Source: an uncultured Bdellovibrio sp. (GTDB taxonomy: Bacteria > Bdellovibrionota > Bdellovibrionia > Bdellovibrionales > Bdellovibrionaceae). From it: a stretch of DNA of 64,000 bases. The DNA lies in NCBI GenBank assembly GCA_963932905.1, contig CAWVRN010000022.1, positions 1-64,000 of the forward strand, given 5' to 3'. How positions within the stretch are numbered: position 1 is the first letter of the stretch; every line of letters begins with the position of its first letter. Below, piece after piece: positions 1-26,294 of this stretch. The notes beneath the pieces were generated by a model. The model saw nothing but the letters and a program-made list of their open reading frames with translations. It did no database searches and was not told where the DNA came from. Both the position numbers and the translations under genes were made by a program.

Positions 1-5
1 AATGC

Positions 6-629
6 TTGTGCTTGAATGACTTTTTGAAATTACCCACCATGGGCCGTGTAGAACCCAATTTTTCGAGGAGGAAAATTGGATGTCCAAAGGCGACAACTCG
101 CAACAATGGAACACCTGTTGATTTTATTGAGTTTTTCCAAAAACGGTCAACTCAATTATTAGATATAGTAGGTCCATTGTACCGTCAAGGTCTGTCCATC
201 AGTGACATTGAAGCTCAGACCGGACTGAAACGGCATTCTATTTGGAAGTGCCTTAGAAAACATAGACAGGAACTACGACCACAGAACCCAGTTCCTTTTG
301 AACGGTGGCGTCAAGGTCATGGAAAGATGAGTGCACGGCCACCGTTTGGCTTCTGCTATTTCCAGGGGCAGGTCATCAAAGACCCGAAAGAATACCCGAC
401 ACTTCAATTGATACAAAGTTTATGGAAACAAGGGACGAGCATTGGTTCCATCATGCGCAAGCTCGATGGAAGAGGGATAAAAACTCGTATGAAAAAGCCG
501 TGGAGCTACAATGTCGTCAAATCCATCATCGGACGTCTGCAAGAAGGCACCATGGAACACTTGGCTTCTTCCCACAAACCAAAGAATTCAAAAACCAATT
601 CAACAGAGGTAAAAAATGAATCTCGATAA
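6..629 (+). CDS. HTH + recombinase (RD-type DNA-binding) domain segment without catalytic domain; probably the detached C-terminal part of the ICE integrase (element-encoded part 81-629)
   Basis: HTH-like LYRQGLSISDIEAQTGLKRHSIWKCL, then PPFGF...E...I..LW..G.S...I...L...GI.T.....W....V..I typical of serine recombinase RD; in frame with the integrase across the att core. Confidence 0.75.
   Translation: MCLNDFLKLPTMGRVEPNFSRRKIGCPKATTRNNGTPVDFIEFFQKRSTQLLDIVGPLYRQGLSISDIEAQTGLKRHSIWKCLRKHRQELRPQNPVPFERWRQGHGKMSARPPFGFCYFQGQVIKDPKEYPTLQLIQSLWKQGTSIGSIMRKLDGRGIKTRMKKPWSYNVVKSIIGRLQEGTMEHLASSHKPKNSKTNSTEVKNESR
74..107. other. Left attachment junction (host half-site + element P arm)
   Basis: AATTGGA-TG-TCCAA-aggcga-CAACTCGCAA; the arm is the inverted complement of the arm at 34299-34319. 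Confidence 0.85.
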
Positions 630-789
630 ACTCATCACCATTTCCGTCGGAGTCGTAGTTGCTCTTTCAGTGACTATGAACCTCGACAAGATCCAAACAT
701 TGATCTGGCGTGCCCAAGCCAAACTCATCTATGAGTCTCGCACGGAAACATGGGGAAGCCCTAGATTCTTCCCGCTCAAGCCAAACTAA
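616..789 (+). CDS. 57-aa small membrane protein (not in ORF track)
   Basis: GAGGT SD, ATG at 616, MNLDKLITISVGVVVALSVTMNLDKIQTLIWRAQAKLIYESRTETWGSPRFFPLKPN; one hydrophobic segment. Confidence 0.55.
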   Translation: MNLDKLITISVGVVVALSVTMNLDKIQTLIWRAQAKLIYESRTETWGSPRFFPLKPN

Positions 790-1394
790 CCCTGTTCCGA
801 TTGCTTTTTCTTTGATCGTTTGTAAAATTCGCGCGCCTTCATAATATTTCCGCAGCTCTTCATCGAACACCAGTTTCGGGTATTGTTGCGGCTGCTATCA
901 TAGAAAAGGTGTGAACAGTTTGGGTTTGCGCATTTTTTTAGTCGCGAAAGTTCAGCCTTACTAACAAAACCCAAAAACTGAAGAACAAGTGTCGATACCT
1001 GCACGGACTCTTTTCTAGTTGATTTCCAAGTGTTCCCAATCTTTCCAGTATTTAATACAAAAACCTCAGGAGAAAAACTGAGCTTTGATAAAAAATCGTT
1101 GATCTGAAGAATTGCCGAATTGGAAATTGATTTCGTAATTAATGATTCAAAAAACTCTCGAAAAATCTGTCTGATTTCTATGGTTTCTTTGAAATCACGC
1201 GGCGTCGGGGTGCACGAAACCCGAAACGCTTCTTTAAAAAAAAGACGCGCATGATCGGGCTGCGATAGCCGGTCTTCGGTCGAGTTCGCATGTATCGCTT
1301 TGGTATTTACAAAATCTAAAACAGGATGCCCTCCAAGTTTGAGAAATTTCTCGGAATCTGTATCTAATTGATTTAAATCAGGTTTTTTTGGCAT
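786..1394 (-). CDS. ABATE/CGNR zinc-finger domain regulator (DUF1470 family)
   Basis: N-terminal GGHPVLDFVNT and C-terminal C-ANPNC..LFYDSSRNNTRNWCSMKSCGN; start at ATG 1394 after AAGGA preferred over 1418. Confidence 0.9.
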   Translation of the reverse strand: MPKKPDLNQLDTDSEKFLKLGGHPVLDFVNTKAIHANSTEDRLSQPDHARLFFKEAFRVSCTPTPRDFKETIEIRQIFREFFESLITKSISNSAILQINDFLSKLSFSPEVFVLNTGKIGNTWKSTRKESVQVSTLVLQFLGFVSKAELSRLKKCANPNCSHLFYDSSRNNTRNWCSMKSCGNIMKAREFYKRSKKKQSEQG

Positions 1395-1411
1395 TTGAAA
1401 CAATTCCTTTA

Positions 1412-1484
1412 TAACCATTAATTATACATTGACTGGTTAAGAAAGACAATATAACCTTCTATATATGCTTAGGAGGTTATATTG
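1412..1484. promoter_or_regulatory. Two tandem TAACC-N18-GGTTA palindromic operators between the CGNR gene and the grx operon
   Basis: Boxes at 1412-1439 and 1452-1479, exactly 40 bp apart; second extends to a perfect 11-bp inverted repeat CAATATAACCT/AGGTTATATTG covering the grx SD and start. Confidence 0.7.
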
Positions 1485-1751
1485 AAAAATCAATCAGCCT
1501 TTCAAATTTATTCCCTTTCACACTGCCCGTATTGCTTGCGAGCAAAACAACTATTGAACCAGGAAGGGTTGCAATTTCACGAGACCGTAATAGCCGATGA
1601 CGACATAAATGGTCGTAGCGAGCTTTTTAATAGAACCGGTATGAAGACTTTTCCGCAGATCTTTTTTAAGGATGAAGTGATCGGTGGATTTTCCGACCTG
1701 AAAAATATTTTTGATCAAAATGGATTCGAGCAATTTCGCAAGAACCAATAA
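1482..1751 (+). CDS. grxC: Glutaredoxin
   Basis: CPYC active site, TFPQIF, IGGFSDL. Confidence 0.9.
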   Translation: MKNQSAFQIYSLSHCPYCLRAKQLLNQEGLQFHETVIADDDINGRSELFNRTGMKTFPQIFFKDEVIGGFSDLKNIFDQNGFEQFRKNQ

Positions 1752-1766
1752 TTAAGGAGAACGCAT

Positions 1767-2213
1767 ATGAAAACTATCTTGATGATTGCAATTATGGCCC
1801 TTTCGCTGATATCAGGTTTTGCACAAGCGGCTGATGAAAACGCACTTCCGGCACTGTCTGGCTATGATCCCGTAAGTTATTTTGCACAAAAAGAACCGAC
1901 GCGCGGAAGCGGAATGCACGCCCATCGACACAAAGGACAGGATTACCTTTTTACTTCAGCCGAAAACTTAGCAGAATTTAAGAAAAATCCGGAAAAATAT
2001 ATGCCGCAATTTGGAGGTTACTGTGCTTTCGGTGCAGCCATGGGAAAAAAATTCCACGCCGATCCTACAGTTTTTTCAGTTGTTGGCGACAAGTTATATC
2101 TTAATTTGAATAAAGATATTCAAATGAAGTGGAACGAAAAACAAGCGCAGATGATTAAAGATGCCGATATGAACTGGAAAAGCATTAAATCCAAAGCTTC
2201 AGACAAACTTTAG
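1767..2213 (+). CDS. Secreted YHS-domain protein
   Basis: Signal peptide; GYDPVSYF, F.S.EN...F...PEKY.PQFGGYCA motifs. Confidence 0.9.
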   Translation: MKTILMIAIMALSLISGFAQAADENALPALSGYDPVSYFAQKEPTRGSGMHAHRHKGQDYLFTSAENLAEFKKNPEKYMPQFGGYCAFGAAMGKKFHADPTVFSVVGDKLYLNLNKDIQMKWNEKQAQMIKDADMNWKSIKSKASDKL

Positions 2214-2221
2214 GAGATGAC

Positions 2222-2815
2222 GTGAAATTTTTTTTAATGACCTTAATGTGTATGATGCCTAGTCTGGCTTTCAGCAAGAGTGATAGCGCAACATACAATT
2301 TAGACAAAAGTCATACGCAGCTGACCTTCGAGGTAGACCATCTTGTGATCAGTACGGTTGTAGGACGGTTTGACGACTTTGAGGGAGAAATTCAGATTGA
2401 TCCAAAGGCGAAAAGTCTAATATCGATAATGGGTAAAGCCAAGGCGAATTCAATCAACACAAATGATGAAAAACGAGATAAACATTTGCGGTCTGCTGAT
2501 TTTTTCGAAGTTGAAAAATATCCTGAACTCACTTTCGAGGCGATCAATCTTAAGCTGAAAGTTGGTAAAAAAGCTAAGGCCAAAGGAAAACTAAAAATTC
2601 GAGATGTGACAAAAGAAATTACGTTCGATCTTCATTACAAGGGCCAAGTCACGGATCCTTGGGGAACCGAAAAAATTGTCGTCGAGGCAACTGCGACAAT
2701 CAAACGTAAAGACTTTGGACTAAAATGGAATGAGGCTTTAGAAACAGGCGGCGTTCTTGTTGGAGAAAAGGTCGAAATTAAAATTAACGCTCAGGCAAAT
2801 CTAAAAACGCAATAA
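2222..2815 (+). CDS. yceI: YceI family lipid/polyisoprenoid-binding protein
   Basis: Signal peptide; D.SHT...F.V.HL..S.V.G.F, SI.T....RD.HL.S.DFF, R.DFG. Confidence 0.92.
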   Translation: MKFFLMTLMCMMPSLAFSKSDSATYNLDKSHTQLTFEVDHLVISTVVGRFDDFEGEIQIDPKAKSLISIMGKAKANSINTNDEKRDKHLRSADFFEVEKYPELTFEAINLKLKVGKKAKAKGKLKIRDVTKEITFDLHYKGQVTDPWGTEKIVVEATATIKRKDFGLKWNEALETGGVLVGEKVEIKINAQANLKTQ

Positions 2816-2825
2816 GGAGATCAAA

Positions 2826-3134
2826 GTGAAAAAATCAAACCTTTTGGCATCAGCTGTGATGTTAGCAGCTATACAAATCACAACCACAGAAGCTTTAGCC
2901 GGCAAAGAAATGGATCCGGTTGGAAAATGTTACGGAGTTGTTGGCAAAGGACAAGGTGAATGCGGCGGTAAAAATCCGGCCAACGGCGAATCTTGGAGCT
3001 GCGCTGGCAATAACCCAACTGCTGACCTGGGTTGGAAAAAAATGAAAAAATCTGAATGTGTAAAGCTTGAAAAGCACATGGATGCTAGCGAAAAAAAATT
3101 CGAGATCAAAAAAGGCAAATTAGAAAAAATTTAG
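2826..3134 (+). CDS. DUF2282 (bufferin BufA1-like) secreted precursor peptide
   Basis: Signal peptide plus four Cys in KCYGV...GEC...SCAG...W....C pattern; directly upstream of a DUF692 gene. Confidence 0.75.
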   Translation: MKKSNLLASAVMLAAIQITTTEALAGKEMDPVGKCYGVVGKGQGECGGKNPANGESWSCAGNNPTADLGWKKMKKSECVKLEKHMDASEKKFEIKKGKLEKI

Positions 3135-3137
3135 CTT

Positions 3138-3968
3138 ATGAATCCAAAAAACAGTGGGCTCTCTTTGCGAGAGACCCACTTCAATCAATTTGAATCCGCA
3201 CCTGCGTTTAACTTGGCTTTTGAAGTTATCTTTGAAAATTACCTTTTCACTAAAGGCGAACGTCGAGAAAAGCTGCAAGATTTTTCAAGAAGTCGATTTC
3301 TGCATTTGCACGGCGTGACTTCAAATGTTGGTAGTCCTGATGTGCTTGATGAAACCTTTTTTTCACAACTTAGAGAGCTTGGAAAAAAGACCAAGGCAAG
3401 TTTGTATTCCGATCATCTTTGCTGGACAAGGCTAAATCAACAATCGACTTTTGAACTATTACCAATACCCCGCACACAAAATATGATCCAACATGTCGGC
3501 GAAAGAGTATCAAAAATTCGTGATCTTTTGGGTTGTGATTTTTTACTTGAAAATATTTCTTCTTATTTTTCCTATGAAATTGATGAGTTATCTGAACTAG
3601 AATTTATGTGTGAACTTCATGACCGCTACCAGATTTGTTTTTTATTAGATCTAAACAACCTTTATGTGAATTCAAAAAATTTTGGTTTCGATGCCAACCA
3701 GTTCCTTCAACAAATTCCGGTAGCGGCTATTTCAGCATTCCACCTTGGAGGACACGAAGATTTTGGAAGTTTCTTGTTTGACACTCATGGTGCGCCGGTA
3801 ACTGATTCAGTGAAAGCTTTGTTTTTAAAAGCTGAAAAACGATTTGGCGAAAAACCTACATTCTTAGAGCGCGATGAAAATATCCCACAAGAAATCGATG
3901 TTTTAGCATTAGAACTAACCGATTTGACATCCGCGGATGAAGATGCTGTCACTGGGGTAAATCAATGA
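3138..3968 (+). CDS. DUF692 multinuclear non-heme iron oxidative enzyme (MNIO)
   Basis: EN, LHGV, SDHLCW, LLPIP, LENIS, LLDLNNLYVN, HLGGH, DTHG, LERD motifs. Confidence 0.93.
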   Translation: MNPKNSGLSLRETHFNQFESAPAFNLAFEVIFENYLFTKGERREKLQDFSRSRFLHLHGVTSNVGSPDVLDETFFSQLRELGKKTKASLYSDHLCWTRLNQQSTFELLPIPRTQNMIQHVGERVSKIRDLLGCDFLLENISSYFSYEIDELSELEFMCELHDRYQICFLLDLNNLYVNSKNFGFDANQFLQQIPVAAISAFHLGGHEDFGSFLFDTHGAPVTDSVKALFLKAEKRFGEKPTFLERDENIPQEIDVLALELTDLTSADEDAVTGVNQ

Positions 3969-4621
3969 ATCGCGAACTTTTGGCCATGCAATTAGTTCAA
4001 GACAAACTTTTTAACACTTCACGAGACTCTGTGATGTTGAGCGGAGCTTCACAAGACGAACTTCTAAAACGCTTTGAAATTTTAAATTACGGATTTCATG
4101 CCAGGACACGCACGGCCTTAGCTACTTGGAGCAAGCAGCTAATCGAAGCCATTGGCGAACAAGAATGGAATCAACTGGGTTTAGAGTTCATAGAACAGCA
4201 TGCAGTCTATGAGCCGCAAATTGGGCGCTTGGCCCTGCTTTTTTTTCAGTGGCTTAAGTCAAAGTCGTTATCTAAGGTAGCGTTTCTGGCCTGCGAGCGC
4301 GACGAGTCCTTTTATTTAAGTCAAAATAATTTTTTTAGCGAATCTAAGCTGTTAGAAAATCCACAGTTGCTGCTTCAAGTTCCTATATGCTTGCAGGAAT
4401 CGACGATACTCATCGAATCGCAGAGCCTAGTTGTTTCAAGAGACCGTCAGCAGTTTTACACGCAAAAACTAGCACAGCTGGAAATTCAAGTTCTTAAAAA
4501 GCTTAATAACCAGTACGTTCTATTGGATTCGCTGTTAGACGATTGTTTCGAACAGGACAAACTAGTCGAGTTTCTAGTCGTTGGCATACAAAAAAAATGG
4601 TTTCAAAAGGAGTTTTCATGA
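3965..4621 (+). CDS. DUF2063-like MNIO partner protein (divergent)
   Basis: Position after DUF692 with ATGA overlap; weak RF.IL..G...R...AL...IG...W..L...F motif. Confidence 0.55.
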   Translation: MNRELLAMQLVQDKLFNTSRDSVMLSGASQDELLKRFEILNYGFHARTRTALATWSKQLIEAIGEQEWNQLGLEFIEQHAVYEPQIGRLALLFFQWLKSKSLSKVAFLACERDESFYLSQNNFFSESKLLENPQLLLQVPICLQESTILIESQSLVVSRDRQQFYTQKLAQLEIQVLKKLNNQYVLLDSLLDDCFEQDKLVEFLVVGIQKKWFQKEFS

Positions 4622-5472
4622 AATTTACGGCGTCTATTTTAATAGTGTTTTGTACTAAGGTAGCATTAGCTTTAGTTTCTGGCCCGGATTCGACTGTGAT
4701 CAAGGGCGAGCAGGTTTTGTCGCTTGGATTTAATAACGAGTCCGGCCTAGCTAAACCACTAGAGACTTCAAATTCATGGATCAGTTCAAAAATTGAAACC
4801 AAAAAACTAACTTATGCTTTGGGGCTCGGAGACTTCGAAGGCTACGGTGCTGAACATATTCTGGGGGTCACTGTTGGCCTAGAAAATTCTGCAGCAGAAG
4901 AAAAAAACGGATCAGTTTTTTATGAAAAAATGGAATCTAAATCAATCGGACTGCAGTATTCAGCAAAACCAATTTCGGAAACAGATTTTTCTTTAACGGT
5001 TTATTCGTCAGTTTTGCTCTTTTTTGAAGGCAAAAAAGAAAAATTTGTCCAAGGTCGAAATGATCAGGTACAGCTTGGCCTGCGATCGAGTTCACGAATG
5101 GCCGAACGTGGAATTTTCGAATCGTGGCTTCATTATGGTTCTGGTTTTTCAGGAAAGCAAAACAGCTATTTAGCAAATTCCTTTTCTTTCGGATATCGTT
5201 TCGGACAGCCAGGACAGATTGAGCCCAGTTTCCGCTTTGGTCCATACATTGAGTTCGATTTAGAATCTCGCAGGGACGCTAACTACGAGGCGGCCTTTGG
5301 CACGGGCCACCCGTCTGAATCTATTCGACAAATTAAAATTGCCGATGCTCTTTACTTTGATATCGCTTTTTACAGAAAATATTTGTTGTCGGTCGTCTCA
5401 TTAAGAAAAAGAGCTGGCGAGGATCTTCGTTCAACGGAAGCTTTCTCGATCCAACTTGCTGCAAAATTTTAA
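4618..5472 (+). CDS. Exported protein, probable outer-membrane beta-barrel
   Basis: Signal peptide from ATG 4618 (ATGA overlap), alternating aromatic/polar strands, C-terminal Phe. Confidence 0.55.
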   Translation: MKFTASILIVFCTKVALALVSGPDSTVIKGEQVLSLGFNNESGLAKPLETSNSWISSKIETKKLTYALGLGDFEGYGAEHILGVTVGLENSAAEEKNGSVFYEKMESKSIGLQYSAKPISETDFSLTVYSSVLLFFEGKKEKFVQGRNDQVQLGLRSSSRMAERGIFESWLHYGSGFSGKQNSYLANSFSFGYRFGQPGQIEPSFRFGPYIEFDLESRRDANYEAAFGTGHPSESIRQIKIADALYFDIAFYRKYLLSVVSLRKRAGEDLRSTEAFSIQLAAKF

Positions 5473-5606
5473 TATTTCGTTTCTAAAAAACATACCTGCG
5501 CTAAGGTTGATCTAATTCAGTTGCTTTAAGTCATTGACGACACGAGTCTATTGGCTTTTGGATGACGACAGAACTCAAGCCAGATAGGATTCAGACAAAT
5601 TTAAAA

Positions 5607-5663
5607 GGGTTTTGCCTTCAGTCTTGAAGGACAAAAGTTAGTCAAATGGTAGGGGCGCCATTT
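5607..5663 (+). ncRNA. Candidate nhaA-I (Li+) riboswitch-like leader
   Basis: GGG + hairpin TTTGCCTTCA/TGAAGGACAAA, then hairpin AAATGG-TAGGGGCG-CCATTT just upstream of nhaA; resembles the GG-UCGGGCCG-CC loop of nhaA-I from memory. Confidence 0.35.
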
Positions 5664-5682
5664 AATTAAAAATGGTGACGAA

Positions 5683-6894
5683 ATGTCAAAATTTAAATTG
5701 AATCCTAACACTTTGCTTCCCAAAAACATCAAAAGTTTTCTACAAAGGTTCTTTGCCGCAGAATCAGCTTCTGGAATTATTTTGGCTGTATGTACAGTTC
5801 TTGCGTTGACCATCGCCAACAGTCAATTCTTAGATTTATATAGCCAATTTCTTAAATTTAAATTGCTGGGACTGACAATCCATCACTGGATTAATGACGG
5901 GTTAATGGCGGTTTTCTTTTTTGTTGTGGGTATGGAGATAAAAAAAGAGATTGTGGTGGGAGAGCTTAGTACGTTAAAAAAGGCCGCCCTGCCAATTTCT
6001 GCAGCCCTGGGCGGAATGATCGTTCCGGCTTTAATCTATTCGTTTTTTAACAGCGGGTCTGATGCTGCTAATGGCTGGGCGGTTCCAATGGCTACGGACA
6101 TTGCATTCGCACTAGGGGTGCTGATGCTGTTTGGATCACGCGTTCCTTTATCACTTAAAATTTTTTTACTGGCGCTGGCCATCGTCGATGATTTGGGTGC
6201 GGTCATGGTCATAGCATTTTTCTATACTGAGGAAGTTCGCGCTATCGGACTTGCGGTGCTGGTGACGGCTTTAGGGATCATATTTTTAGCAAAGCGTTTT
6301 GGATATAGGTCTTATTTTATCTATCTAATTCTTGGCACAATTGCCTGGGGCGGAACACTGTATTCAGGAGTTCATGCTACTGTGGCAGGAGTTCTTCTTG
6401 GTTTGATGACTCCGTATTTAATTTCCTCTAATAAGGCACAATCTCAAAAAACATTTTCGCCGCTAGATGATTTGATACACAAACTGCATCCGTGGGTAAG
6501 TTTCGGTATCATGCCCGTTTTCGCTTTTGCAAATGCAGGTTTATCACTCCAAGGTGTGGATTTTTCTAAAATAGCGTCTAGCCCTGTTTTTTCTGGAATC
6601 TGGCTGGGACTTTTTTTAGGAAAGCCAATTGGCATCGTACTTTTTTCTTTTATAGCAACAGTTATCGGAATCGCTGTGTTACCTGACGGAATGGGATGGA
6701 GACACATAGTCGGCGTTTCAATGCTTGCCGGTATTGGATTCACAATGGCTCTTTTTATTTCAAGCCTTTCATTAGGCTCACATTATGCGGTCTATGCTAA
6801 AACTGGAATCTTGGCAGGATCAATCGTTTCAGGCGTTTTTGGATTTATCTGGCTAAAATTTGCAATTAGAAAAAAATCCGTCGGAAAACCTTGA
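5683..6894 (+). CDS. nhaA: Na+/H+ antiporter NhaA
   Basis: WINDGLMAVFF, ATDIAFA, LAIVDD, GVHAT, GIGFTM motifs. Confidence 0.97.
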   Translation: MSKFKLNPNTLLPKNIKSFLQRFFAAESASGIILAVCTVLALTIANSQFLDLYSQFLKFKLLGLTIHHWINDGLMAVFFFVVGMEIKKEIVVGELSTLKKAALPISAALGGMIVPALIYSFFNSGSDAANGWAVPMATDIAFALGVLMLFGSRVPLSLKIFLLALAIVDDLGAVMVIAFFYTEEVRAIGLAVLVTALGIIFLAKRFGYRSYFIYLILGTIAWGGTLYSGVHATVAGVLLGLMTPYLISSNKAQSQKTFSPLDDLIHKLHPWVSFGIMPVFAFANAGLSLQGVDFSKIASSPVFSGIWLGLFLGKPIGIVLFSFIATVIGIAVLPDGMGWRHIVGVSMLAGIGFTMALFISSLSLGSHYAVYAKTGILAGSIVSGVFGFIWLKFAIRKKSVGKP

Positions 6895-6927
6895 TACTAT
6901 TCTGTTCTTCGATGTAAAAAACATTCG

Positions 6928-7077
6928 CTATTTTAATTTATCATCAAGAGGCATAGTGTTTTTTATATCTTTTTTTCCAAAGTTATTTTCCCAAAAAATA
7001 ATACTAACAATCAAGATTATCGTGGGAATAAGAAAGTAAATGATATCAACAAGTTTAGACGTAACGGCTGGTGACAT
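6928..7077 (-). CDS. Possible 49-aa small membrane protein
   Basis: G-rich SD then MSPAVTSKLVDIIYFLIPTIILIVSIIFWENN...; single hydrophobic helix. Confidence 0.3.
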   Translation of the reverse strand: MSPAVTSKLVDIIYFLIPTIILIVSIIFWENNFGKKDIKNTMPLDDKLK

Positions 7078-7395
7078 AGGCCCCCAAGTTCAAAGTGGCG
7101 ACCCTACCACTTAATTACTTTCATTCACAGAATGCGAACGAAACCCCTTTATTCGACTTAGCTTAATTATAACTGCAGTCCTTAAGAAAGTCTTTGATTG
7201 TTCTAGCTTAAATACGATGATTCCTTCACATACGAACACAATGTCACTGGCAGAAAAAAAGTTAACATCGAAAGACCAAGGTATTGTCTGGTCTAGGATA
7301 GAATCAAGATTATTCATCCACCCCACTTTAAAATGAAGTCCAACTTATTTTAAAATCGAAGCTTCATTTTTTAATAAATTGCATTGCGCTTAGGT

Positions 7396-8145
7396 TCAAT
7401 CAAGTGCCAGAAATAAGAATTCAGACTTCTCATAAAAAGCATTATAGCTTTTCAATACCTCATGTTGGCTTTCGAAATTTGCTAAGACAGATTGTTTTTC
7501 CTCTAAATTAACGGCAACTTCAAAACCGCTGTACGTCTTAAAATTGAACAATATCGAGAGCATCGCTTTAACGAATAATGTAGTCTTGTTCTCGTCTTCG
7601 CTTAAAAGGAAATAACCTTTCAGAAGCAGATACAAAACATACCTCTTTTTTCTAATACTCAAATAATAACTTCTTTTTTTAGTTGATTTTTCCAGTAGCT
7701 TTTGCTCGCTAAAAAATCCAAACTGTATCGAGTGAAAACCACAAAATTCTTTGGTCATCCAATAAAGTTGAAGGTGGTGGGGATGTGGTTTTTCACCTCC
7801 ATGTGGCGGGTGCGTGATGGCCAAGTCAATTTTATACTTTGAAAAAACTTTTATAAAGGCTTGCCTAAGATCACTCTGCCTCAATAGGCGATCAATTCCA
7901 GTATCCTCGCAATGGCCAAAAACGACCTTTAGTCCTAAATCATCCACAACTTTGGTTAGCTCTTTCCCTCTTTTGGATACTGCTGCATGCGTTAAACAAA
8001 AAATCAATATTTCATTTGCAGTCTTTAGCTGTTGAATGGACTGAAAAAACCAAAGTGTTTCGTCATCTGGATGCGCGACAATAAGCAATATTCTTTTGTT
8101 TTTAATTTCACTGAGACGCCGCATAACAATCAGTTCATATTGCAC
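7396..8145 (-). CDS. PIG-L/LmbE family deacetylase
   Basis: AHPDDE and HPHH metal motifs; true start may be ATG 8124. Confidence 0.85.
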   Translation of the reverse strand: MQYELIVMRRLSEIKNKRILLIVAHPDDETLWFFQSIQQLKTANEILIFCLTHAAVSKRGKELTKVVDDLGLKVVFGHCEDTGIDRLLRQSDLRQAFIKVFSKYKIDLAITHPPHGGEKPHPHHLQLYWMTKEFCGFHSIQFGFFSEQKLLEKSTKKRSYYLSIRKKRYVLYLLLKGYFLLSEDENKTTLFVKAMLSILFNFKTYSGFEVAVNLEEKQSVLANFESQHEVLKSYNAFYEKSEFLFLALD

Positions 8146-8193
8146 AATTTTGAAGTATAAGTAAAACTAATATTATAACACGTGACATAGGTA

Positions 8194-9105
8194 TTGCTAA
8201 TGATAAACATGAATCATCTAAGAGCTTTTTATATTTGCGCACTTCAAAAGAATATAACGAAGACAGCTGAAGTATTGCGCGTGAGTCAGCCCTCCATTAG
8301 TCAACAGCTGAAATTGTTTGAACAAGAGTTGGGGTTTCCTGTATTTTTTAGAAATGGTCGAACATTAGACCTTACCTCAGAAGGGAAGCTTCTATTTCAG
8401 AAGTCTAAAAGTGTTTTTGAATCTATAATCGGAGTTGAGGATTTTTTAGAATGCAAGACTGGTTTCTCAGGGAAAATTTCACTTCTTGCAAGTGACGATA
8501 TAGAGCGCCCTTTTCTGGCAAAAATTTCGAATGAGCTAATGAAAAGTGCATCTTTTTATCGTGCTGCATTCTCTGTCAATTCGATCGCTGGTCTTGCAAA
8601 ATCTAATTTGCACAAGACAAAGTCGGATGAATTCTATCTTTCAAATGGAAAAATGAAATCTCTTGAACTTGTTCACGAATTTTCTTTTCCTGTGAAGTTG
8701 ATTTCAACTGTTCAGAATATCGAAATGGGTCAAGTCAAAACAAGTAACTTGAGGTCATTGCTGTCTAGGCTAGGACAGAGGCTACTTGTTCCGAGCAAGG
8801 GTCATGCACTAAGAACTGAATTGGAAGATCATGTGGATATCTCTGAGCTGAAAGAGCATATTCTATTGGAGAGTAATGTCATGACATGTTTAACTCATTC
8901 TGTGCGTGAGGGATTGGGGTGCAGTCTTTTACCCATTCAGTATGTCTATGATGATGTTAAAAAAAATAATCTTTCTGTCTTCGGACCACCCAATGGTTTT
9001 TGGGAGCATCGACTATTCTTGTACTCTTCTAAGAACCAAAGTCATAATGTTGCAAAAGAGTTGGTTCGCATTATTCAAAAATTCTCGATCGAAAAGGGAG
9101 GCTAA
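8194..9105 (+). CDS. LysR family regulator (NhaR-like)
   Basis: N-terminal HTH NHL..FY......ITKTAE.L.VSQPSISQQLK..E..LG; start probably ATG 8200 or 8209. Confidence 0.9.
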   Translation: MLMINMNHLRAFYICALQKNITKTAEVLRVSQPSISQQLKLFEQELGFPVFFRNGRTLDLTSEGKLLFQKSKSVFESIIGVEDFLECKTGFSGKISLLASDDIERPFLAKISNELMKSASFYRAAFSVNSIAGLAKSNLHKTKSDEFYLSNGKMKSLELVHEFSFPVKLISTVQNIEMGQVKTSNLRSLLSRLGQRLLVPSKGHALRTELEDHVDISELKEHILLESNVMTCLTHSVREGLGCSLLPIQYVYDDVKKNNLSVFGPPNGFWEHRLFLYSSKNQSHNVAKELVRIIQKFSIEKGG

Positions 9106-9315
9106 ATGGTCAGTGTCATCATACCAGCGTTAAACGAAGAAAAAAGAATTGCCGATATTGTTAAGTTTTGCCTTTCTTCGAGTCTTATCTCAGAGGTCAT
9201 TGTTATAGATGATGGATCGACAGATAACACCTTTGAGCTTGCAAAGACAGCGGGAGCTAAAGTTTCTTTTAGCTCTATGCTCGGAAAAGGAACTTCGATG
9301 GAAGCCCCGACTTGA
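9106..9315 (+). pseudogene. Truncated family 2 glycosyltransferase
   Basis: VSVIIPALNEE...VIDDGSTD.T...GKG then ends at 69 aa where an IS-like end begins (9299). Confidence 0.85.
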
Positions 9316-9886
9316 AGTTGGACGAAAAACACCGGTATACCGGGAACATGGTCTAAGTATGGACATCGGCTTGAATGTGGACCTTGAACCGCTTTTTTCT
9401 AAAATGATATTCTATTTACTTGCACGACCTTTGTAGCAGTGTCAGTTCAATTAGATTAATAGCTATAGGTTGAGTTGAGTTAGGTACTTGAAATCGGCAT
9501 TTAATTAACAAAGCTCGAATTAATTTCTGAGTCCTTACGATGATTAAGCTCAAGACTGTGTGAAAGGATTTTTTATAAAATTCCATTTTCACCTGAACTA
9601 AATTGTGCGTGAACTTCAGATTTCGTTGCTGCAATGAGTGCTAGGTTCACTTTTTTCATTACCCCACACCAAAACCTATGGCCGATGTTCAACCCATACA
9701 GAAGGGCAACTTAGCGCGTTTCTATAAGCAACAGAAATTTCAATCGTCTTGAACTTTCATGCTTCATACTGAGAGAGCGGCCTGCTTTTATTCAAACAGA
9801 GAAAGTCCATCTTGAAAGCGGTGAATTTTGACCACCCGTGACCGGCATACCGGTGAAAACCGTCCACTTTGAAGCCGGCGCTTCCA
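9299..9886. mobile_element. 588-bp non-autonomous IS remnant (IS21-like ends)
   Basis: TG...CA termini with 45-bp imperfect inverted repeats (34/45 matches by hand); extra internal copy of the end motif near 9819-9836; no transposase ORF. Confidence 0.65.
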
Positions 9887-9889
9887 CGC

Positions 9890-9909
9890 ATGATGTGCCA
9901 GCACACCAT
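9890..9909. promoter_or_regulatory. Operator copy 1 (ATGATGTG-CCAG-CACACCAT) upstream of Crp/Fnr gene
   Basis: 19/20 identical to the palindrome at 10638. Confidence 0.7.
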
Positions 9910-9981
9910 TTTTAGGCTAATTCTTTAAATCACTGTGCGTTAGTTGCTCTTTTTTTCAAATAGGTCTGGTAGGCTTTTGTC

Positions 9982-10626
9982 ATGGAATTCAAAGAGTTAT
10001 GGTCGGACATCGATCCCGAAATACGGTGGTATTTTGAGTCGCAGTCCAAGGCTATACAATATAAACGCGGGGATTATATTTATTCTCAAGGTGAAACGCC
10101 TAAAGGAATCTATTTTGTTAAGTCGGGCTTAGTTGGGCTTACTATGATCAGTTCAAAATCTGGCAAAGAGCATCTTTTGAGATTTTTTCGTCAGGGGCAA
10201 TTTTTTGGACATCGTTCAATGTTTTCAAAAGAAGGCTATCATGGTAATGCTGTGGCCCTGGAGGTAACTAATATTAAATTTGTGCCGAAAGAGGCCGTAC
10301 TTTCAGGTATCGAAAAAAACAAATCCCTTTTAGAAGACGTTGTTTTCGTCCTTTCAAAAGAGCTTAGACGATGTGAAACTCAACACGTTATGATTCTTGA
10401 AAATGAAATCCTAGTTCGAGTTGCACAGTCACTGGTTTATCTTAAAGACTTACATCCCGATCACAATTGGACTCGTCAAGAAATTGCAAACTTCTGTGCG
10501 AGTACGGTTTCAACAGTAATTAAAGCACTAACAGAACTCGAAGAGAGTGGTTTTATTAGTCAAGAGGGCCGATCTATCTCGATTTTAGACAGAAATAATC
10601 TTATTGCGCTGCAAGACCAGACCTAA
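9982..10626 (+). CDS. Crp/Fnr family transcriptional regulator
   Basis: cNMP-binding fold (IY.QGE...GIYFVKSG.V, G.FFG) and C-terminal HTH TRQEIANFCASTVSTVIKAL. Confidence 0.92.
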   Translation: MEFKELWSDIDPEIRWYFESQSKAIQYKRGDYIYSQGETPKGIYFVKSGLVGLTMISSKSGKEHLLRFFRQGQFFGHRSMFSKEGYHGNAVALEVTNIKFVPKEAVLSGIEKNKSLLEDVVFVLSKELRRCETQHVMILENEILVRVAQSLVYLKDLHPDHNWTRQEIANFCASTVSTVIKALTELEESGFISQEGRSISILDRNNLIALQDQT

Positions 10627-10637
10627 TAATTCTAAAA

Positions 10638-10657
10638 ATGATGTGCCAGCACATCAT
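10638..10657. promoter_or_regulatory. Operator copy 2 (palindrome ATGATGTG-CCAG-CACATCAT) upstream of sulfur operon
   Basis: Perfect 8-bp inverted repeat arms, 32 nt before the ATG. Confidence 0.75.
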
Positions 10658-10689
10658 GGTTGCCTTCAACGTTGGGCGATACTTAGTTC

Positions 10690-12123
10690 ATGAGCACGAA
10701 CAAAGTATCTAAAATTACTTGTGAACAAATCTATAACATTTGGACGACTGAGCCAGAACTTATCAGTCTTCTTGATTTAAGATCCAAAGCTGAGTTCGAC
10801 TCGGGCCATATCCCAGGATCAAAACATATTACAATCTCGGATCTTGTCGATGTCTTAAAAAGTATTGAAAAAAAACTAGTCGTGCTTATTGCCAATACTG
10901 AACAAGAACAACAAATAACCCAAACCTGTGAAAATTTCGATAATTTTGCGTTTATGAGTCAATGCCACAGATGGATTGAATTAGACCATCCCCTTTTTGG
11001 TCAGGGGTTTACTCATACATTTAAAAGATTCAATCATATTTTAGAAAAAGGAGAAACTGTGAATAATAATATCATCTTTCATCAACTATTCGAATCTGAA
11101 TCATCAACATATACTTACCTAATCGCAGATAAGAAGACAAAAGAAGCTGCGATTATTGATCCAGTTCTTGAAACTGTCGATCGAGATTTAAAATTGATTG
11201 ATGAATTAGGTTTAAAACTTATCTATGCTCTCGATACTCATATTCACGCCGACCATATAACTGGTGCTGGAGAACTCCGAAAACGCCTAGGAATTAAAAC
11301 AGCAGTTAGTTCAGATGCAGAAGTCGCATGTGTTGATATACCGCTTGAGGACGGACAAGAACTTTTGCTTGGTGATAAAACAATTAAGGTCATTGCGACC
11401 CCAGGCCACACAAACACCTGCTTAACTTATGCTTTTGAAGGACTGATATTTACTGGTGACGCGTTACTAATTAGAAGCTGTGGTCGTACAGATTTCCAAC
11501 AGGGTGACTCAGCAAAACTTTATCACAGTGTTAGAGAAAAGCTGTTTAAGCTTCCTGAGGACACAAAAATATACCCAGGGCACGACTATCGCGGCCATAC
11601 GTCATCGACAGTCGGAATTGAAAAGAAACACAATGCTCGATTGAATGAAAAAATCTCTCTGGATGATTTTAAAAAAATCATGTCAGAGCTTAAATTAGCC
11701 AATCCTAAAAAAATTCATGAAGCTGTTCCAGCAAACTTAGCCTGTGGAAAGCCGAAAGATGCGCGAACTCTTCATCCTCAGGTGGTTGATGGAACACCAG
11801 AGATCACAGTTGAAGATTTGTTAACTCATCTTAGCGATGTGAAAAATAAAAAAATAAGACTTATCGATGTGCGTAGACCAGATGAGTACAACAACGAACT
11901 TGGTCATATCGAAGGAGCAGAGTTGATTACATTAGGAGCTGATCTGACGGCATTCCTAGAAAAAGGTGATCGCTCTGAAGAAATTGTTTTTGTATGTCGT
12001 AGTGGAGGTCGCTCAGGAACGGCCACAGCGGAAAGTATAAAACTTGGATATAAATTTACGATTAATATGGCTGGCGGAATGATTCGGTGGAATGAAAAGA
12101 AGCAGCCCGTGGTGAGACAATAA
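10690..12123 (+). CDS. Rhodanese-persulfide dioxygenase (ETHE1-like MBL)-rhodanese fusion
   Basis: THIHADHITG, TPGHT, FTGD, GRTDFQ, PGHDY; C-terminal rhodanese CRSGGRS; N-terminal rhodanese-like DLRS..EF..GHIPGS. Confidence 0.92.
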   Translation: MSTNKVSKITCEQIYNIWTTEPELISLLDLRSKAEFDSGHIPGSKHITISDLVDVLKSIEKKLVVLIANTEQEQQITQTCENFDNFAFMSQCHRWIELDHPLFGQGFTHTFKRFNHILEKGETVNNNIIFHQLFESESSTYTYLIADKKTKEAAIIDPVLETVDRDLKLIDELGLKLIYALDTHIHADHITGAGELRKRLGIKTAVSSDAEVACVDIPLEDGQELLLGDKTIKVIATPGHTNTCLTYAFEGLIFTGDALLIRSCGRTDFQQGDSAKLYHSVREKLFKLPEDTKIYPGHDYRGHTSSTVGIEKKHNARLNEKISLDDFKKIMSELKLANPKKIHEAVPANLACGKPKDARTLHPQVVDGTPEITVEDLLTHLSDVKNKKIRLIDVRRPDEYNNELGHIEGAELITLGADLTAFLEKGDRSEEIVFVCRSGGRSGTATAESIKLGYKFTINMAGGMIRWNEKKQPVVRQ

Positions 12124-12135
12124 AGGAGAATTTAA

Positions 12136-12558
12136 ATGAGTCAGGATTGGATGAATGCATTATTGGGTGGAGTTTTAATTGGAGTATCGGTTTCGTTGAT
12201 GCTTCTTTGGAACGGACGAGTCACTGGCATAAGTGGGATCGTCAACGGGGCCATGACACCAGTAAAAGGAGACACGCTTTGGAGAGTCTTATTTATTGCG
12301 GGGCTATTTCTTGGTGGATTAGTGATGGGACAATTAAATCCTAAAGTTTTTGAGAATACAATTGCGTCTGATATTTGGACGACAGTGGCTGCGGGGTTAC
12401 TCGTTGGTTTTGGCACTATATTAGGTAGTGGATGCACAAGCGGTCATGGCGTTTGCGGCATAAGCCGGATGTCACCAAGATCTTTAGTTGCAACTGTAGT
12501 TTTTATGGCAGCTGGAATTGCAGCGGTTTTTATCTTCAGAAAGTTAGGAGTTTACTAA
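12136..12558 (+). CDS. YeeE/YedE sulfur transporter family protein
   Basis: GRVTGISGI and GSGCTSGHGVCG motifs. Confidence 0.92.
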   Translation: MSQDWMNALLGGVLIGVSVSLMLLWNGRVTGISGIVNGAMTPVKGDTLWRVLFIAGLFLGGLVMGQLNPKVFENTIASDIWTTVAAGLLVGFGTILGSGCTSGHGVCGISRMSPRSLVATVVFMAAGIAAVFIFRKLGVY

Positions 12559-12986
12559 TGAAAAATTCTATTGCAGCCCTTGTTGTCGGATTTGTTTTTG
12601 CAATCGGTCTTGGTCTTTCTGGAATGACACAGCCTCAAAAGGTGATTGGGTTTTTGGACTTATTTGGCCAATGGGACCCCTCATTAATATTTGTGATGGT
12701 TGGCGCAATTATTGTTCACTTTGTTACATTTAAATTGATTCGAAAAAGAAACTCTCCACTATTCAGTAGCCAGTGGCATGTTCCAACAAAAAAGGAAATC
12801 ACCCCAGCCTTAATGATTGGTGCCTTTATTTTTGGAATTGGATGGGCGCTAGGCGGATTTTGTCCGGGACCTGCTATTACATCTATGGCGAGCTTTGATA
12901 AAACACCTTTCGTTTTTGTCATTAGCATGGTTGTCGGTATGGTGCTATTTCGACATGTCGACAAGAAACTTAAACTTCAAAAGTAG
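12558..12986 (+). CDS. YeeE/YedE sulfur transporter family protein (second half)
   Basis: GLGLSGMT.P.KV.GFLD..G.WDPSL and GFCPGP; ATG 12558 overlaps upstream stop. Confidence 0.9.
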   Translation: MKNSIAALVVGFVFAIGLGLSGMTQPQKVIGFLDLFGQWDPSLIFVMVGAIIVHFVTFKLIRKRNSPLFSSQWHVPTKKEITPALMIGAFIFGIGWALGGFCPGPAITSMASFDKTPFVFVISMVVGMVLFRHVDKKLKLQK

Positions 12987-12992
12987 GAATGT

Positions 12993-13793
12993 ATGGAAAT
13001 CATAGGTTATATTGCTTCGATTTTTATGGGACTTTCTCTGGGAATGATCGGCGGTGGTGGTTCAATTTTAACAGTCCCTATTTTAGTTTATCTGTTTGGG
13101 ACGAATCCGATCACAGCTACGGCGTACTCTTTGTTTATCGTTGGATCAACAGCGCTCGTCGGTGGTATTTCGTATCTTAAAAAGGGAGAAGTCGATCTTA
13201 AGACTGGTTTTATTTTCGCAGTTCCCAGTTTCATCGGGGTTTATTTAACACGAGCCTATGTAGTTCCAGCTCTTCCTGATCCCGTCTTTTCTTTGGGGTC
13301 TTTTGTGTTTTCAAAACCACTTCTTATTATGTTGGTTTTTGCAATTTTGATGGTGGCAGCATCTTTATCAATGATTAAGACCAAAAAAGCAGAGGCAAGT
13401 AAGGCCGAACTAAGCCCAACTGCAAAATTTCTCTTGATTGGTGCAGAAGGTTTTATTGTTGGCGGTGTAACTGGATTCGTTGGAGCTGGTGGTGGTTTCT
13501 TAATTATACCGGCATTAGTTATACTGGTCGGAATGCCCATGAAGATCGCAGTGGGAACATCCTTATTTATTATCGCTGCAAAGTCTTTAATTGGCTTCAC
13601 CGGTGATTTACAACATCACGCTCAGATTGAGTGGTCTCTATTGACGACACTCACGGCGATTGCAGTTTTTGGATTATTTATCGGCATGTATCTTACAAAA
13701 AAAGTTTCAGAAAAAGGTCTTAAAAAAGGATTTGGGTATTTTGTCTTGTTGATGGGTGCCTTTATTTTATTTGATCAACTTAAAAAACTATAA
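12993..13793 (+). CDS. TauE/SafE family sulfite exporter
   Basis: GGGGSILTVP and GAGGGFLIIP repeats, multiple TM helices. Confidence 0.92.
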   Translation: MEIIGYIASIFMGLSLGMIGGGGSILTVPILVYLFGTNPITATAYSLFIVGSTALVGGISYLKKGEVDLKTGFIFAVPSFIGVYLTRAYVVPALPDPVFSLGSFVFSKPLLIMLVFAILMVAASLSMIKTKKAEASKAELSPTAKFLLIGAEGFIVGGVTGFVGAGGGFLIIPALVILVGMPMKIAVGTSLFIIAAKSLIGFTGDLQHHAQIEWSLLTTLTAIAVFGLFIGMYLTKKVSEKGLKKGFGYFVLLMGAFILFDQLKKL

Positions 13794-13808
13794 AAGTCAG
13801 GAGTCAAA

Positions 13809-14102
13809 ATGTCTAAAACAGCTTATAAAGTTCTTATTCTAGGTGGTGGAGCAGGCGGAATTTCTGTAGCTGCAAAACTAAGGCGAGAATTGGATTCAGG
13901 GGAAATTGCGATTATTGATCCCACGGATAAGCATTTCTATCAGCCATTATGGACAGTTGCCGGAACAGGCTTAATGGATAAAACAGAAACAGAAAAAGAT
14001 GAAAGAGACTTAATCCCCAATGGTGTGGATTGGATAAAAGAGTCTGTTCTATCAACAGGTCAAACAAAAATCACACCATCTCCGAAACCTCCTGTGGACT
14101 GA
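13809..14102 (+). pseudogene. sqr: Truncated sulfide:quinone oxidoreductase (N-terminal FAD-binding part)
   Basis: GGGAGG Rossmann motif, H.YQPLWT; similarity ends after ~82 aa. Confidence 0.85.
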
Positions 14103-14336
14103 CATTAAGAGAGAACATTCTCAATCAGAAATGGAATATGAAAACGAAGTTTTAGATCTCTGGCACAAGTTGGCACGTCCATGGCGCTCTGGACCCTGCT
14201 GCCTCCTGACCTCTACTTTTGGCACACTTTCAAAGCCCCGCCAGCAATACCACACCTCAATAAATTCAATTATCGCTGATTTCGCCTTGTACAGATGGGC
14301 AAATGTCATCAATTTTGGATGATGGGATTTTGACAT
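14066..14336. mobile_element. IS debris incl. IS3-family integrase-core fragment
   Basis: Minus-strand AKSAIIEFIEVWY resembles IS3 OrfB C-terminus, cut by another TG-starting end at 14246; truncates sqr. Confidence 0.5.
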
Positions 14337-14477
14337 CTAAAGAATGGGCTCAATTTCTTCAGCCCATTCTGGTATTAGAATTTTTCAAAAAGTAATTGCA
14401 GGCTTTTTATAAAAACGACATGAGATTTCTTAACAGCAGCCACTGACCATTCGGGCATGGCCGGTAGTTCAATGGAT

Positions 14478-16034: not shown

Positions 16035-16834
16035 TGGCCATCCGCCGTTTCTGCAACAAAACGAGCCGTCTGAATCGGCGCACTTGATAGAATTGAAACT
16101 TGTGAATGATCGACGTGAACTCTTTTTAGCATCGGAATGTCAGTGCGGAAATCGTCTGCGTCAATGTCACAAACAAGCAGGGGTTCAATCTGAGATAAAA
16201 ATTTTGAATCTATATGCCATGGGAGCTCTACATCAGACTTTTTGTTTTCATCGGTAAGCCATGCAAAATTTGGCAGAGCTTCCAATAACGATCGCTGAAT
16301 ACTTTTTTCTAAGGAATTCGACAAAGCAAATCCAAAAGCCGTGGCACCGCCAGAAGTGACCTTCATTGAACACACTAATCCGAATAGTTCTTGAGGCGTT
16401 TGCATTTTATAAAAACTTAATTCGGATTCGGGATTTAGATTTCTAAACTTTTTTGTATCGATGCTTTCAAGAAAAATTTGGTGAAATGGAATTTTTTCTT
16501 TAAGATGTTTTTTAAGATAAAATCGTTCCAAAGCCTCGTGACTGGCATGATCGATGGGATCATATGTGCTACCTATCGCAAATCCAACGGAATCAAATCC
16601 CAAGCTTTTACAAATCAATCGCTCGATTGCCTCGGCAACGGATTTTTCAAGTGCAATTTCACGGCTAGAATCTACGCCTCGACCTTTTGCCTCAGTACCA
16701 TCCCAGGAAAGAGTCGTAGAAAAATCGTGTAACCCAGGAAGGATACGATTAGACCAGCTAAACTCTTTAAATCGAGGATTTAGCTCATGCCGTTTTGAAT
16801 AAAGCCAAGCGGCTAGTGGAGTTTTATTCGCCAT
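16031..16834 (-). CDS. Compact YcaO-family protein
   Basis: GRG......ALEKSVAEAIER, S.GFA......HASHEALER, and GFA......SI.RSLLEA match YcaO ATP/Mg-binding motifs. Confidence 0.7.
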   Translation of the reverse strand: MANKTPLAAWLYSKRHELNPRFKEFSWSNRILPGLHDFSTTLSWDGTEAKGRGVDSSREIALEKSVAEAIERLICKSLGFDSVGFAIGSTYDPIDHASHEALERFYLKKHLKEKIPFHQIFLESIDTKKFRNLNPESELSFYKMQTPQELFGLVCSMKVTSGGATAFGFALSNSLEKSIQRSLLEALPNFAWLTDENKKSDVELPWHIDSKFLSQIEPLLVCDIDADDFRTDIPMLKRVHVDHSQVSILSSAPIQTARFVAETADGQ

Positions 16835-18351: not shown

Positions 18352-18363
18352 ATAATTCTGACC

Positions 18364-18639
18364 TTAATATGGTCCTCCACCAAGACAAACCGTGTCGGGA
18401 TCTGTTGTGCCACGGTCAATACGGCCTTCAGATTCAAGAACGCTTAGAATATCGTGATCAAATTGCACGCACTGGTTTTGGTTTGCTGTCAGGGTTTTAG
18501 TGCTACCTAAAATCCTAATCGCCCAGGCGATCTGCTGTTTTTGCAGCGGAGTCAACTTCTTGGCCTGATCTACATCAGCTAAAGCCGTGACGTTAATTCC
18601 CACCATCCCTGCGAAAATTGCTAAAATTGTTTTCTTCAT
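18364..18639 (-). CDS. 91-aa secreted peptide, candidate signal/RiPP precursor
   Basis: Sec signal MKKTILAIFAGMVGINVTALA; two Cys; C-terminus TDPDTVCLGGGPY; ATGA-coupled to the regulator. Confidence 0.8.
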   Translation of the reverse strand: MKKTILAIFAGMVGINVTALADVDQAKKLTPLQKQQIAWAIRILGSTKTLTANQNQCVQFDHDILSVLESEGRIDRGTTDPDTVCLGGGPY

Positions 18640-20027: not shown

Positions 20028-20064
20028 ATTTTAATTCCCCCCACATTTTCCCTTCAATCACTGT

Positions 20065-26274: not shown

Positions 26275-26294
26275 CGGTCAAAGGAGGTATTTTT

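What the first reader, a model, noticed from the sequence alone, without database searches (positions are those of the whole stretch)
74..107. Both ICE ends are in the window; the rebuilt attP is a symmetric serine-integrase site targeting the tRNA-Gln acceptor stem
Seen: joined ends give TTGCGAGTTG-aaggaa-TTGGA-[TG]-TCCAA-aggcga-CAACTCGCAA, with perfect 5-bp inner and 10-bp outer inverted repeats and equal 6-bp spacers. The central TG corresponds to tRNA C71-A72, and the element restores U73-CCA. The direct repeat is only 9 bp, so tools needing long tRNA repeats would miss it. Inference: this defines an integrase/attP/attB set (attB = ...gaggaggaaaattgga TG gggtagcagg...).
Basis: seen in the sequence. 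Interest (0 to 1): 0.72.

Follow-up and report, generated by a model that had tools for sequence, protein, structure and literature searches.

The report
Serine-integrase site at tRNA CCA end
A 34-kb conjugative island was inserted two bases inside the CCA end of a glutamine tRNA gene by a serine integrase whose relatives enter many different tRNA genes at the same position and whose own gene is cut in two by the insertion; this is an unusual variant of known phage-type integrases and has not been tested at the bench.

Summary
The 9-bp repeat (74-82 / 34313-34321) and mirror arms are real: 20 of 28 positions, the best of 2,579 same-core sites in the genome. Relatives fix the register: in 17 of 19 two-ended elements the best symmetry axis lies between tRNA bases 71 and 72, across Gln, Met, Pro, Arg and Val targets. 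54 of the 80 closest integrases read into a tRNA/tmRNA 3' end. Three corrections. (1) attP lies inside the integrase gene, so excision would add a 182-residue HTH-plus-recombinase tail (768 aa). (2) The proposed attB is not a pristine site: bases 2-55 are an ISL3-type IS end, and 56-76 probably come from an older island. (3) Across the family only the tRNA half of attB carries the shifted integrase motif, and in this Gln element even that match is absent. No excised circle was seen. Serine recombinases at tRNA/tmRNA genes are rare but published (phiRSM, mycobacterial AICEs, DsiB). The scan noted the split gene before, on this window and on paralogues, and the same register in Patescibacteria. 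Verdict: new variant of a known kind.

The parts
2..55 (.). End of a multicopy repeat, most likely an ISL3-family insertion sequence; not part of the ICE; cause of the contig break
   Evidence: Identical to the ends of contigs C9, C11 and C6, each just behind a tRNA gene. A similar end follows an ISL3 transposase gene in G123 (L297). The own genome holds ISL3 transposase matches.
56..73 (.). Outer arm of the pre-integration site (B arm); probably the stump of an older island's end, not original host trailer
   Evidence: The 20 bases before the core match the tRNA-Gln flank of relatives (19/20 in L135, 17/20 in L134, 11-15/20 in nine others) far better than the element arm does. In G107 and G099 this kind of flank sits inside a segment that displaced a short tRNA 3' fragment.
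74..82 (+). Left copy of the 9-bp direct repeat; central crossover dinucleotide at 81-82
   Evidence: family register.
83..110 (+). Left element arm (P' arm of attP), mirror of 34292-34319
   Evidence: 20 of 28 positions complementary. Homologous left ends keep GCAA at positions 18-21.
84..629 (+). Detached 3' part of the integrase gene: HTH domain plus a second, short recombinase domain (181 codons after the junction codon)
   Evidence: In frame with the integrase across the repeat. Pfam Recombinase in 33 of 35 homologues and HTH_23 in 21 of 35. The model has two domains, mean pLDDT 79.5. Top fold matches are serine-integrase structures, but weak, E 0.03-0.08.
83..34321 (+). The integrated element (34,239 bp), an ICE
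   Evidence: Bounded by the two junctions; carries a T4SS module and the integrase.
21590..30187 (+). Conjugation module: VirB2-like pilin, VirB4/TraC, VirB8, VirB9, VirB10, coupling protein
   Evidence: Pfam and NCBIfam hits.
30474..31289 (+). Possible replication-relaxation (relaxase-like) gene
   Evidence: Weak hit to NF041423, E 0.004, far below cut-off; tentative.
32562..34337 (+). Large serine integrase ORF (591 aa as an open frame), reading through the right junction into the tRNA antisense strand
   Evidence: Resolvase + Recombinase + Zn ribbon. Y-R-x-S catalytic motif invariant in 18 homologues. Stop codon 21 bp inside the tRNA gene.
34292..34319 (+). Right element arm (P arm of attP), ending in the element-supplied U73-CCA (34316-34319)
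34313..34321 (+). Right copy of the direct repeat; central dinucleotide 34320-34321 (tRNA A72/C71)
34316..34391 (-). Target tRNA-Gln(UUG), the only tRNA-Gln called in the assembly, intact after integration

Best explanation
Bases 74-110 and 34292-34321 are the two ends of a 34-kb ICE inserted by its large serine integrase. The circular form carries a mirror-symmetric attP of about 58 bp inside the integrase gene. The enzyme cuts around the dinucleotide that matches tRNA bases 71-72, and the element supplies N73-CCA, so the tRNA stays intact with only a 6-bp core in common. Integration splits the gene: a truncated integrase ending in the tRNA antisense strand stays at one end, and a 182-residue HTH-plus-recombinase tail goes to the other. 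Shown: sequence, symmetry, register, shared frame, natural fused genes at tandem junctions. Inferred: that this enzyme performs the reaction; that the family recognises attB mainly through its tRNA half (CCA, core, T-loop) with little demand on the other half; and that the fused form is the integration-competent one while the short form is the resting or excision form.
For: Symmetry far above chance. In 19 same-contig pairs the best of 41 candidate axes is between bases 71 and 72 in 17 (one of them a tie). All 19 repeats overlap only on N73-N72-N71, and one is just those 3 bp. The frame is shared in 18 of 19. Cognate arms match at a mean of 16.5/28 against 10.8 for non-cognate arms. Placed by protein homology, 39 of 52 left ends have TGG at the same offset and frame. 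54 of 80 closest integrases read into a tRNA/tmRNA 3' end, and 4 more are fused to the tail. Fused frames of 744-788 codons occur in six relatives. In 17 pairs the P-arm motif matches the tRNA arm at the canonical 5-bp shift (147/306, other shifts 36-98) but not the outer arm (91/306, range 77-103) (shift model from PMC3783163). An independent run holds a 96%-identical integrase with the same right junction (X3).
Against: No excised circle or empty junction was seen in the four runs laid, which were contigs only and covered only the right end. The natural fused junctions are hybrids with weak symmetry (7-14/28), not true circles. Two of 19 pairs do not peak at the expected axis and one is out of frame. 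In this element neither attB arm carries the motif at the 5-bp shift (5/18 and 6/18), and Gln-type elements are poor in general. The best non-cognate arm pair scores 23/28, so symmetry alone does not prove partnership. The genomes are kin and not independent.
Confidence: 0.85

Rival explanations
1. The boundaries are right, but the tail is a separately translated directionality factor or repressor. The shared frame is only a trace of its origin, and the short integrase is the normal enzyme for both reactions.
For: 12 of 39 open tails have an ATG within 45 codons, and this one has a TTG at 177 behind a possible ribosome site. The truncated protein already has all canonical domains. A minority subfamily uses another frame at the core.
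Against: 27 of 39 open tails have no ATG in the first 45 codons, and their frames are open from the junction. The frame is shared in 18 of 19 pairs, including the other-frame subfamily. Fused genes exist and are stop-free.
Confidence: 0.25
2. The element is a dead relic. The sites are recognisable, but the present left junction cannot be recombined, because the outer arm is foreign DNA truncated by an IS about 20 bp from the core.
For: The IS end sits at 55, leaving about 25 bp of outer arm. No circle was seen. Several relatives keep a left end with no integrase at the tRNA (G107, G099, G123).
Against: Integrase, tail and conjugation genes are open and full length. Identical or near-identical integrase DNA occurs in several independent runs. 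Outer arms vary freely across the family.
Confidence: 0.2
3. The true left boundary lies further out, beyond the contig start, and 74-110 is an internal tandem junction between two elements of this same family.
For: The frame stays open through bases 3-82. The outer arm resembles the P arm at a 1-bp shift (13/18). Tandem junctions are common in the family.
Against: Only 26 codons are open, and they run into an IS end. The outer arm matches non-integrase flanks of relatives. Even in a tandem, 82/83 would remain this element's own left end, because its arm mirrors the right arm.
Confidence: 0.07

Closest known systems
Phage-type large serine integrases (Listeria LI/A118, Bxb1, phiC31, SPbeta SprA); att model of Rutherford et al. 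2013, PMC3783163 (passages read)
   Same: Domain order. Best PDB sequence match is SPbeta SprA/YokA, E 1e-16. Two-base central crossover, symmetric attP, and an outer motif near positions 16-24 that reappears 5 bp inward in attB (family-wide, tRNA arm).
   Different: The target is a tRNA acceptor stem. The shifted motif is found in one attB arm only. attP lies inside the integrase gene, and an extra HTH + recombinase tail joins only in the attP state.
Dehalococcoides ssrA islands, integrase DsiB (McMurdie et al. 2011, PMC3146451; passages read)
   Same: A CcrB-like large serine recombinase at a tRNA-like gene, tandem arrays, and an integrase gene overlapping the att site. The authors already propose that it may be fully functional only on the circle or behind another island.
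   Different: DsiB inserts in the tmRNA T-loop with a 20-bp repeat and one target. Here the crossover is at bases 71-72, the core is 6 bp, there are at least seven tRNA types plus tmRNA among the closest relatives, and the missing 3' part is an identifiable two-domain module.
phiRSM resolvase-like integrase at tRNA-Ser (PMC4471427, passages) and mycobacterial AICE serine recombinases at tRNA-Leu (PMC3218068, passages)
   Same: Serine recombinases that integrate at tRNA genes; phiRSM uses the last 13 bp of the gene.
   Different: phiRSM Int is a small resolvase-type enzyme with attP between genes. The passages read on the AICEs give no crossover position or split gene. Each has one target tRNA.
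Mx8 and SSV integrases that extend across attP (mentioned in Hudson et al. 2015, PMC4383910, passages; mechanism recalled)
   Same: The integrase gene is rewritten by its own integration at a tRNA gene.
   Different: Those are tyrosine recombinases; here a serine integrase loses a DNA-binding module.

Membership tests
Large serine recombinases / serine integrases | Catalytic resolvase domain with active-site serine, followed by Recombinase and zinc-ribbon domains | tested here: met
   PF00239, PF07508 and PF13408 all above cut-off. Y6, R8, S10 and two C-terminal arginines are invariant in 18 homologues.
Large serine recombinases / serine integrases | Short sites with imperfect inverted symmetry around a shared 2-bp crossover | tested here: met
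   20/28 in the window; same axis in 17 of 19 pairs.
Large serine recombinases / serine integrases | attP zinc-domain motif repeated 5 bp nearer the centre in both attB half-sites | tested here: inconclusive
   Met for the tRNA half across 17 pairs (147/306), not for the outer half (91/306), and for neither half in this element (5/18, 6/18).
Large serine recombinases / serine integrases | Unidirectional attP x attB recombination, reversed by a separate directionality factor | not testable with these tools
   No activity data; no directionality factor was identified.
Integrative and conjugative element | Integrase plus att-bounded ends | tested here: met
Integrative and conjugative element | Type IV secretion genes and coupling protein | tested here: met
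   VirB2, VirB4, VirB8, VirB9, VirB10 and coupling-protein hits.
Integrative and conjugative element | Relaxase and oriT | tested here: inconclusive
   Only a sub-threshold replication-relaxation hit at 30474-31289. The single PF03432 match in the genome is on another contig. oriT was not sought.
Dehalococcoides ssrA-GI (DsiB) type | Insertion in the tmRNA T-loop leaving a 20-bp repeat | tested here: not met
   The target is tRNA-Gln, the repeat is 9 bp and the crossover is at bases 71-72. No longer tRNA fragment was found elsewhere in the assembly.
Dehalococcoides ssrA-GI (DsiB) type | Integrase gene overlaps the att site at its 3' end | tested here: met
SCCmec Ccr recombinases | CcrA/B/C equivalog score and insertion in rlmH | tested here: not met
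   129 bits against a cut-off of 900 for CcrB; the target is a tRNA gene.

The most novel reading that the evidence does not exclude
A widespread Bdellovibrionota family of serine integrases docks on features shared by all tRNA genes (CCA and T-loop), reads only one half of attB, and changes target tRNA largely by changing the two crossover bases and a few neighbours. The extra HTH + recombinase module, joined only on the circle, makes up for the missing half-site and acts as a built-in directionality switch. Such enzymes could be steered into any chosen tRNA end without damaging it.
Probability: 0.3. Interest if true: 0.82.

Novelty: new variant of a known kind. Interest (0 to 1): 0.6.

Why it matters
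Island finders that look for a displaced tRNA fragment plus a tyrosine integrase are built on the premise that serine integrases do not target tRNA genes (PMC4383910), and a 6-9-bp core is at or below their seed length. These islands are therefore likely to be missed in a group where the left-end module occurs in 77 of 151 genomes searched. The fixed register gives exact, testable att sites for dozens of natural integrases with different central dinucleotides, aimed at essential genes that remain intact. It also makes the 2011 suggestion for DsiB (full function only on the circle) directly testable with a defined two-domain tail.

Tried and rejected
1. Longer or better left att further out in the window: none; base 83 is the best mirror in the window.
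2. Excision in public runs: four runs laid on 32500-35300 showed no circle junction. 
3. A natural cognate attP: none found. The tail had no match in the plasmid collection and one weak partial phage match, and none in viral contigs. Metagenome contigs gave 3 loci, none fused; one is identical to the window and breaks at the same IS.
4. Control of 80 generic viral serine integrases: 0 read into a tRNA, but 36 end at the record edge, so only 44 are informative.
5. T-loop mimicry for this element (lead e1-7685904): holds family-wide but not here.
6. A tyrosine integrase beside the conserved outer flank: none among 27 ORFs scanned in four loci, so the older-island reading rests on repeat layout and displaced tRNA fragments only.
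7. My first automatic junction picker mis-placed three pairs and three of four fused junctions; these were redone with a protein-homology anchor.
8. Foldseek gave no match at E <= 0.001 for the tail.
9. Mageeney 2020 and Williams 2002 were not held; they may describe serine integrases at tRNA genes. Literature searches; none returned a description of this family. No supplements were read.

Full report
Observation. The window is the start of contig C22. The 9-bp repeat at 74-82 and 34313-34321 is the longest shared by the two ends. Base 83 is the best mirror of the right arm in the whole window. In the 4.55-Mb assembly only 2 of 553,290 TG sites reach 20/28, and this site is first among the 2,579 that share the 6-bp core. 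The tRNA-Gln(UUG) gene at 34316-34391 (minus strand) has U73 and an encoded CCA, and the central TG is A72/C71.

The element. Between the junctions lie a T4SS module with coupling protein, a doubtful relaxase, cargo genes and a large serine integrase at 32562-34337. The integrase frame does not stop before the right junction; it ends 21 bp inside the tRNA gene. The left end starts an open frame, 84-629, in the same frame, so joining the ends gives one stop-free frame of 768 codons. The tail has an HTH domain and a short second recombinase domain; fold matches to integrase structures are consistent but weak.

The family. In the same genome seven other integrase matches lie beside a tRNA 3' end; six of them read into it (Met twice, Val, Arg twice, His) and one stops 57 bp short. 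The tail matches 77 of 151 family genomes. Named relatives are almost all Bdellovibrionota. Of the 80 closest integrase loci, 54 read into a tRNA or tmRNA 3' end (Met 17, Arg 14, Ala 9, Gln 5, Pro 3, Val 3, His 1, tmRNA 2; 45 in the window's frame). Four are fused to the tail, 8 end at the record edge and 14 have no tRNA call. Several of the 14 end in a partial tRNA 3' fragment. This set may overlap the genomes used below and consists of kin.

The register. I attempted 31 left/right pairs and kept 19. I dropped 3 without a tRNA call, 4 without an integrase at the tRNA, 2 outer tandem ends and 3 cross-contig pairs. The junction was placed by protein homology plus best match to the 6-bp core, so the presence of a core is partly built in; the symmetry axis is not. 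The best of 41 axes lies between bases 71 and 72 in 17 of 19 pairs (one tie). The repeat ends right after base 71 in 13 and 2-3 bases further in 6, and the stretch common to all 19 is N73-N72-N71, because one element shares only those three bases with its target. The frame is shared in 18 of 19. The two exceptions for the axis are a tandem hybrid in G165 and an Arg element in G003. Independently, 39 of 52 left ends have TGG at the same offset and frame, although my picker favoured that offset.

What lies left of 74. Bases 2-55 also end contigs C9, C11 and C6 behind tRNA genes, and a similar end follows an ISL3 transposase gene in G123; I read it as an IS end. Bases 56-76 match the flank of tRNA-Gln in many relatives that have no integrase there, which supports the predicted empty site over about 20 bp. 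But that flank is a 150-230-bp module shared across genera, with three short direct repeats at 11-bp spacing. In G107 and G099 it lies inside a segment that pushed a short tRNA 3' fragment outward. It is therefore probably the end of an older island of another kind; I found no integrase for it. G004 and G007 instead show a terminator-like hairpin there.

Mechanism. In the structural model for serine integrases, the attP motif at positions 16-24 recurs 5 bp inward in attB (PMC3783163, passages). Across 17 pairs this holds for the tRNA half, where it falls on the T-loop (147 of 306 matches against 36-98 at other shifts). It does not hold for the outer half (91, range 77-103), which is conserved only over CCA and a short T-rich run. 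These 17 were chosen as the clearly symmetric pairs and include two cross-contig pairs and one outer tandem end. Outer arms include terminators, island ends and other elements' P arms, and insertion behind another family member creates fused genes of 744-788 codons. I infer a one-sided attB. This element is an exception on the tRNA side: 5 of 18 at the 5-bp shift, with Gln-type arms averaging 3.0 of 9 against 4.45 for the rest. How Gln-type enzymes read their target is unexplained. I consider it most likely that the fused protein is the integrating form and that losing the tail stabilises the integrated state, but this is inference: 12 of 39 tails have an early ATG and could be made separately.

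Activity. No circle junction appeared in four laid runs (contigs, right end only). One run carries a 96%-identical integrase with the same right junction, and two hold identical integrase pieces.

Known systems. [quoted passage not shown] A 2011 survey calls it rare and names phiRSM and mycobacterial AICEs at tRNA-Leu. DsiB is a large serine recombinase at the tmRNA T-loop whose gene overlaps att, with the circle-only idea already proposed. The main text of a large survey of serine integrases and their targets does not contain the word tRNA (PMC10083194), and a 2026 provirus survey finds serine integrases mostly in coding genes (PMC13626063). I read passages of these papers, the whole of PMC12424338, and passages of PMC12884075, PMC5704250 and bioRxiv 2020.12.28.424599 without finding this family. 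Eight searches returned no description of it, but two key papers were not held and no supplements were read.

Earlier scan notes. The split gene was noted on this window and on paralogues, and a similar crossover in Patescibacteria. I had reached the split-gene reading before looking. The notes gave me the DsiB, Rutherford and T-loop leads, which I checked.

Verdict. The feature is real and correctly placed. It is a new variant of the large serine integrases: fixed crossover at tRNA bases 71-72, many tRNA targets, attP inside the gene, and probably one-sided attB recognition. Function is untested. Interest 0.6.

Noticed in passing
window 2-55; contig ends C6, C9, C11; L021, L034, L297: An ISL3-type IS sits just behind tRNA genes, and in C6, C11 and L021 its end is followed by up to five tandem copies of an 8-bp unit, which may be footprints of repeated insertion or excision.
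   Followed up: partly
L296, L298, L299, L303 (150-230 bp beyond tRNA-Gln): A non-coding module conserved across genera, with three short direct repeats at 11-bp spacing, abuts the tRNA-Gln 3' end; it looks like the arm of a tyrosine-integrase island, but no integrase was found beside it.
   Followed up: partly
L306:15001-15234 (G099): A segment of only about 230 bp lies between a 24-bp tRNA-Gln 3' fragment and the intact tRNA: possibly a miniature non-autonomous element.
   Followed up: no
L050, L053, L055, L057, L101; L069, L079: An Arg-targeting subfamily keeps the same core position but uses a different reading frame at both ends, which suggests the fusion frame is maintained by selection.
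   Followed up: partly
G165:C1:1057533-1156069; G112:C91:72943-131211: Stacked arrays: three Gln-type left ends in G165 and five left ends in G112 ahead of one terminal integrase.
   Followed up: partly
window 2826-4621: Cargo cluster with a small unknown ORF, an MbnB/TglH/ChrH-family (DUF692) enzyme and a DUF2063 gene: a possible peptide-modification locus.
   Followed up: no
window 9982-14102: Cargo cluster of a Crp-type regulator, a metallo-hydrolase/rhodanese fusion, YeeE-type transporters, TauE and a short oxidoreductase ORF; probably sulfur handling, not drug resistance (inference).
   Followed up: no
window 616-789; L004: A 57-codon ORF overlaps the end of the tail gene, and a similar small ORF occurs near tRNA-Gln in G006; no family hit.
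   Followed up: no
G000:C58 (2,063 bp): A small contig with two divergent integrase matches, probably a collapsed repeat.
   Followed up: no
L307: A metagenome record is identical to window 7-3126 and breaks at the same IS end; not independent support.
   Followed up: yes
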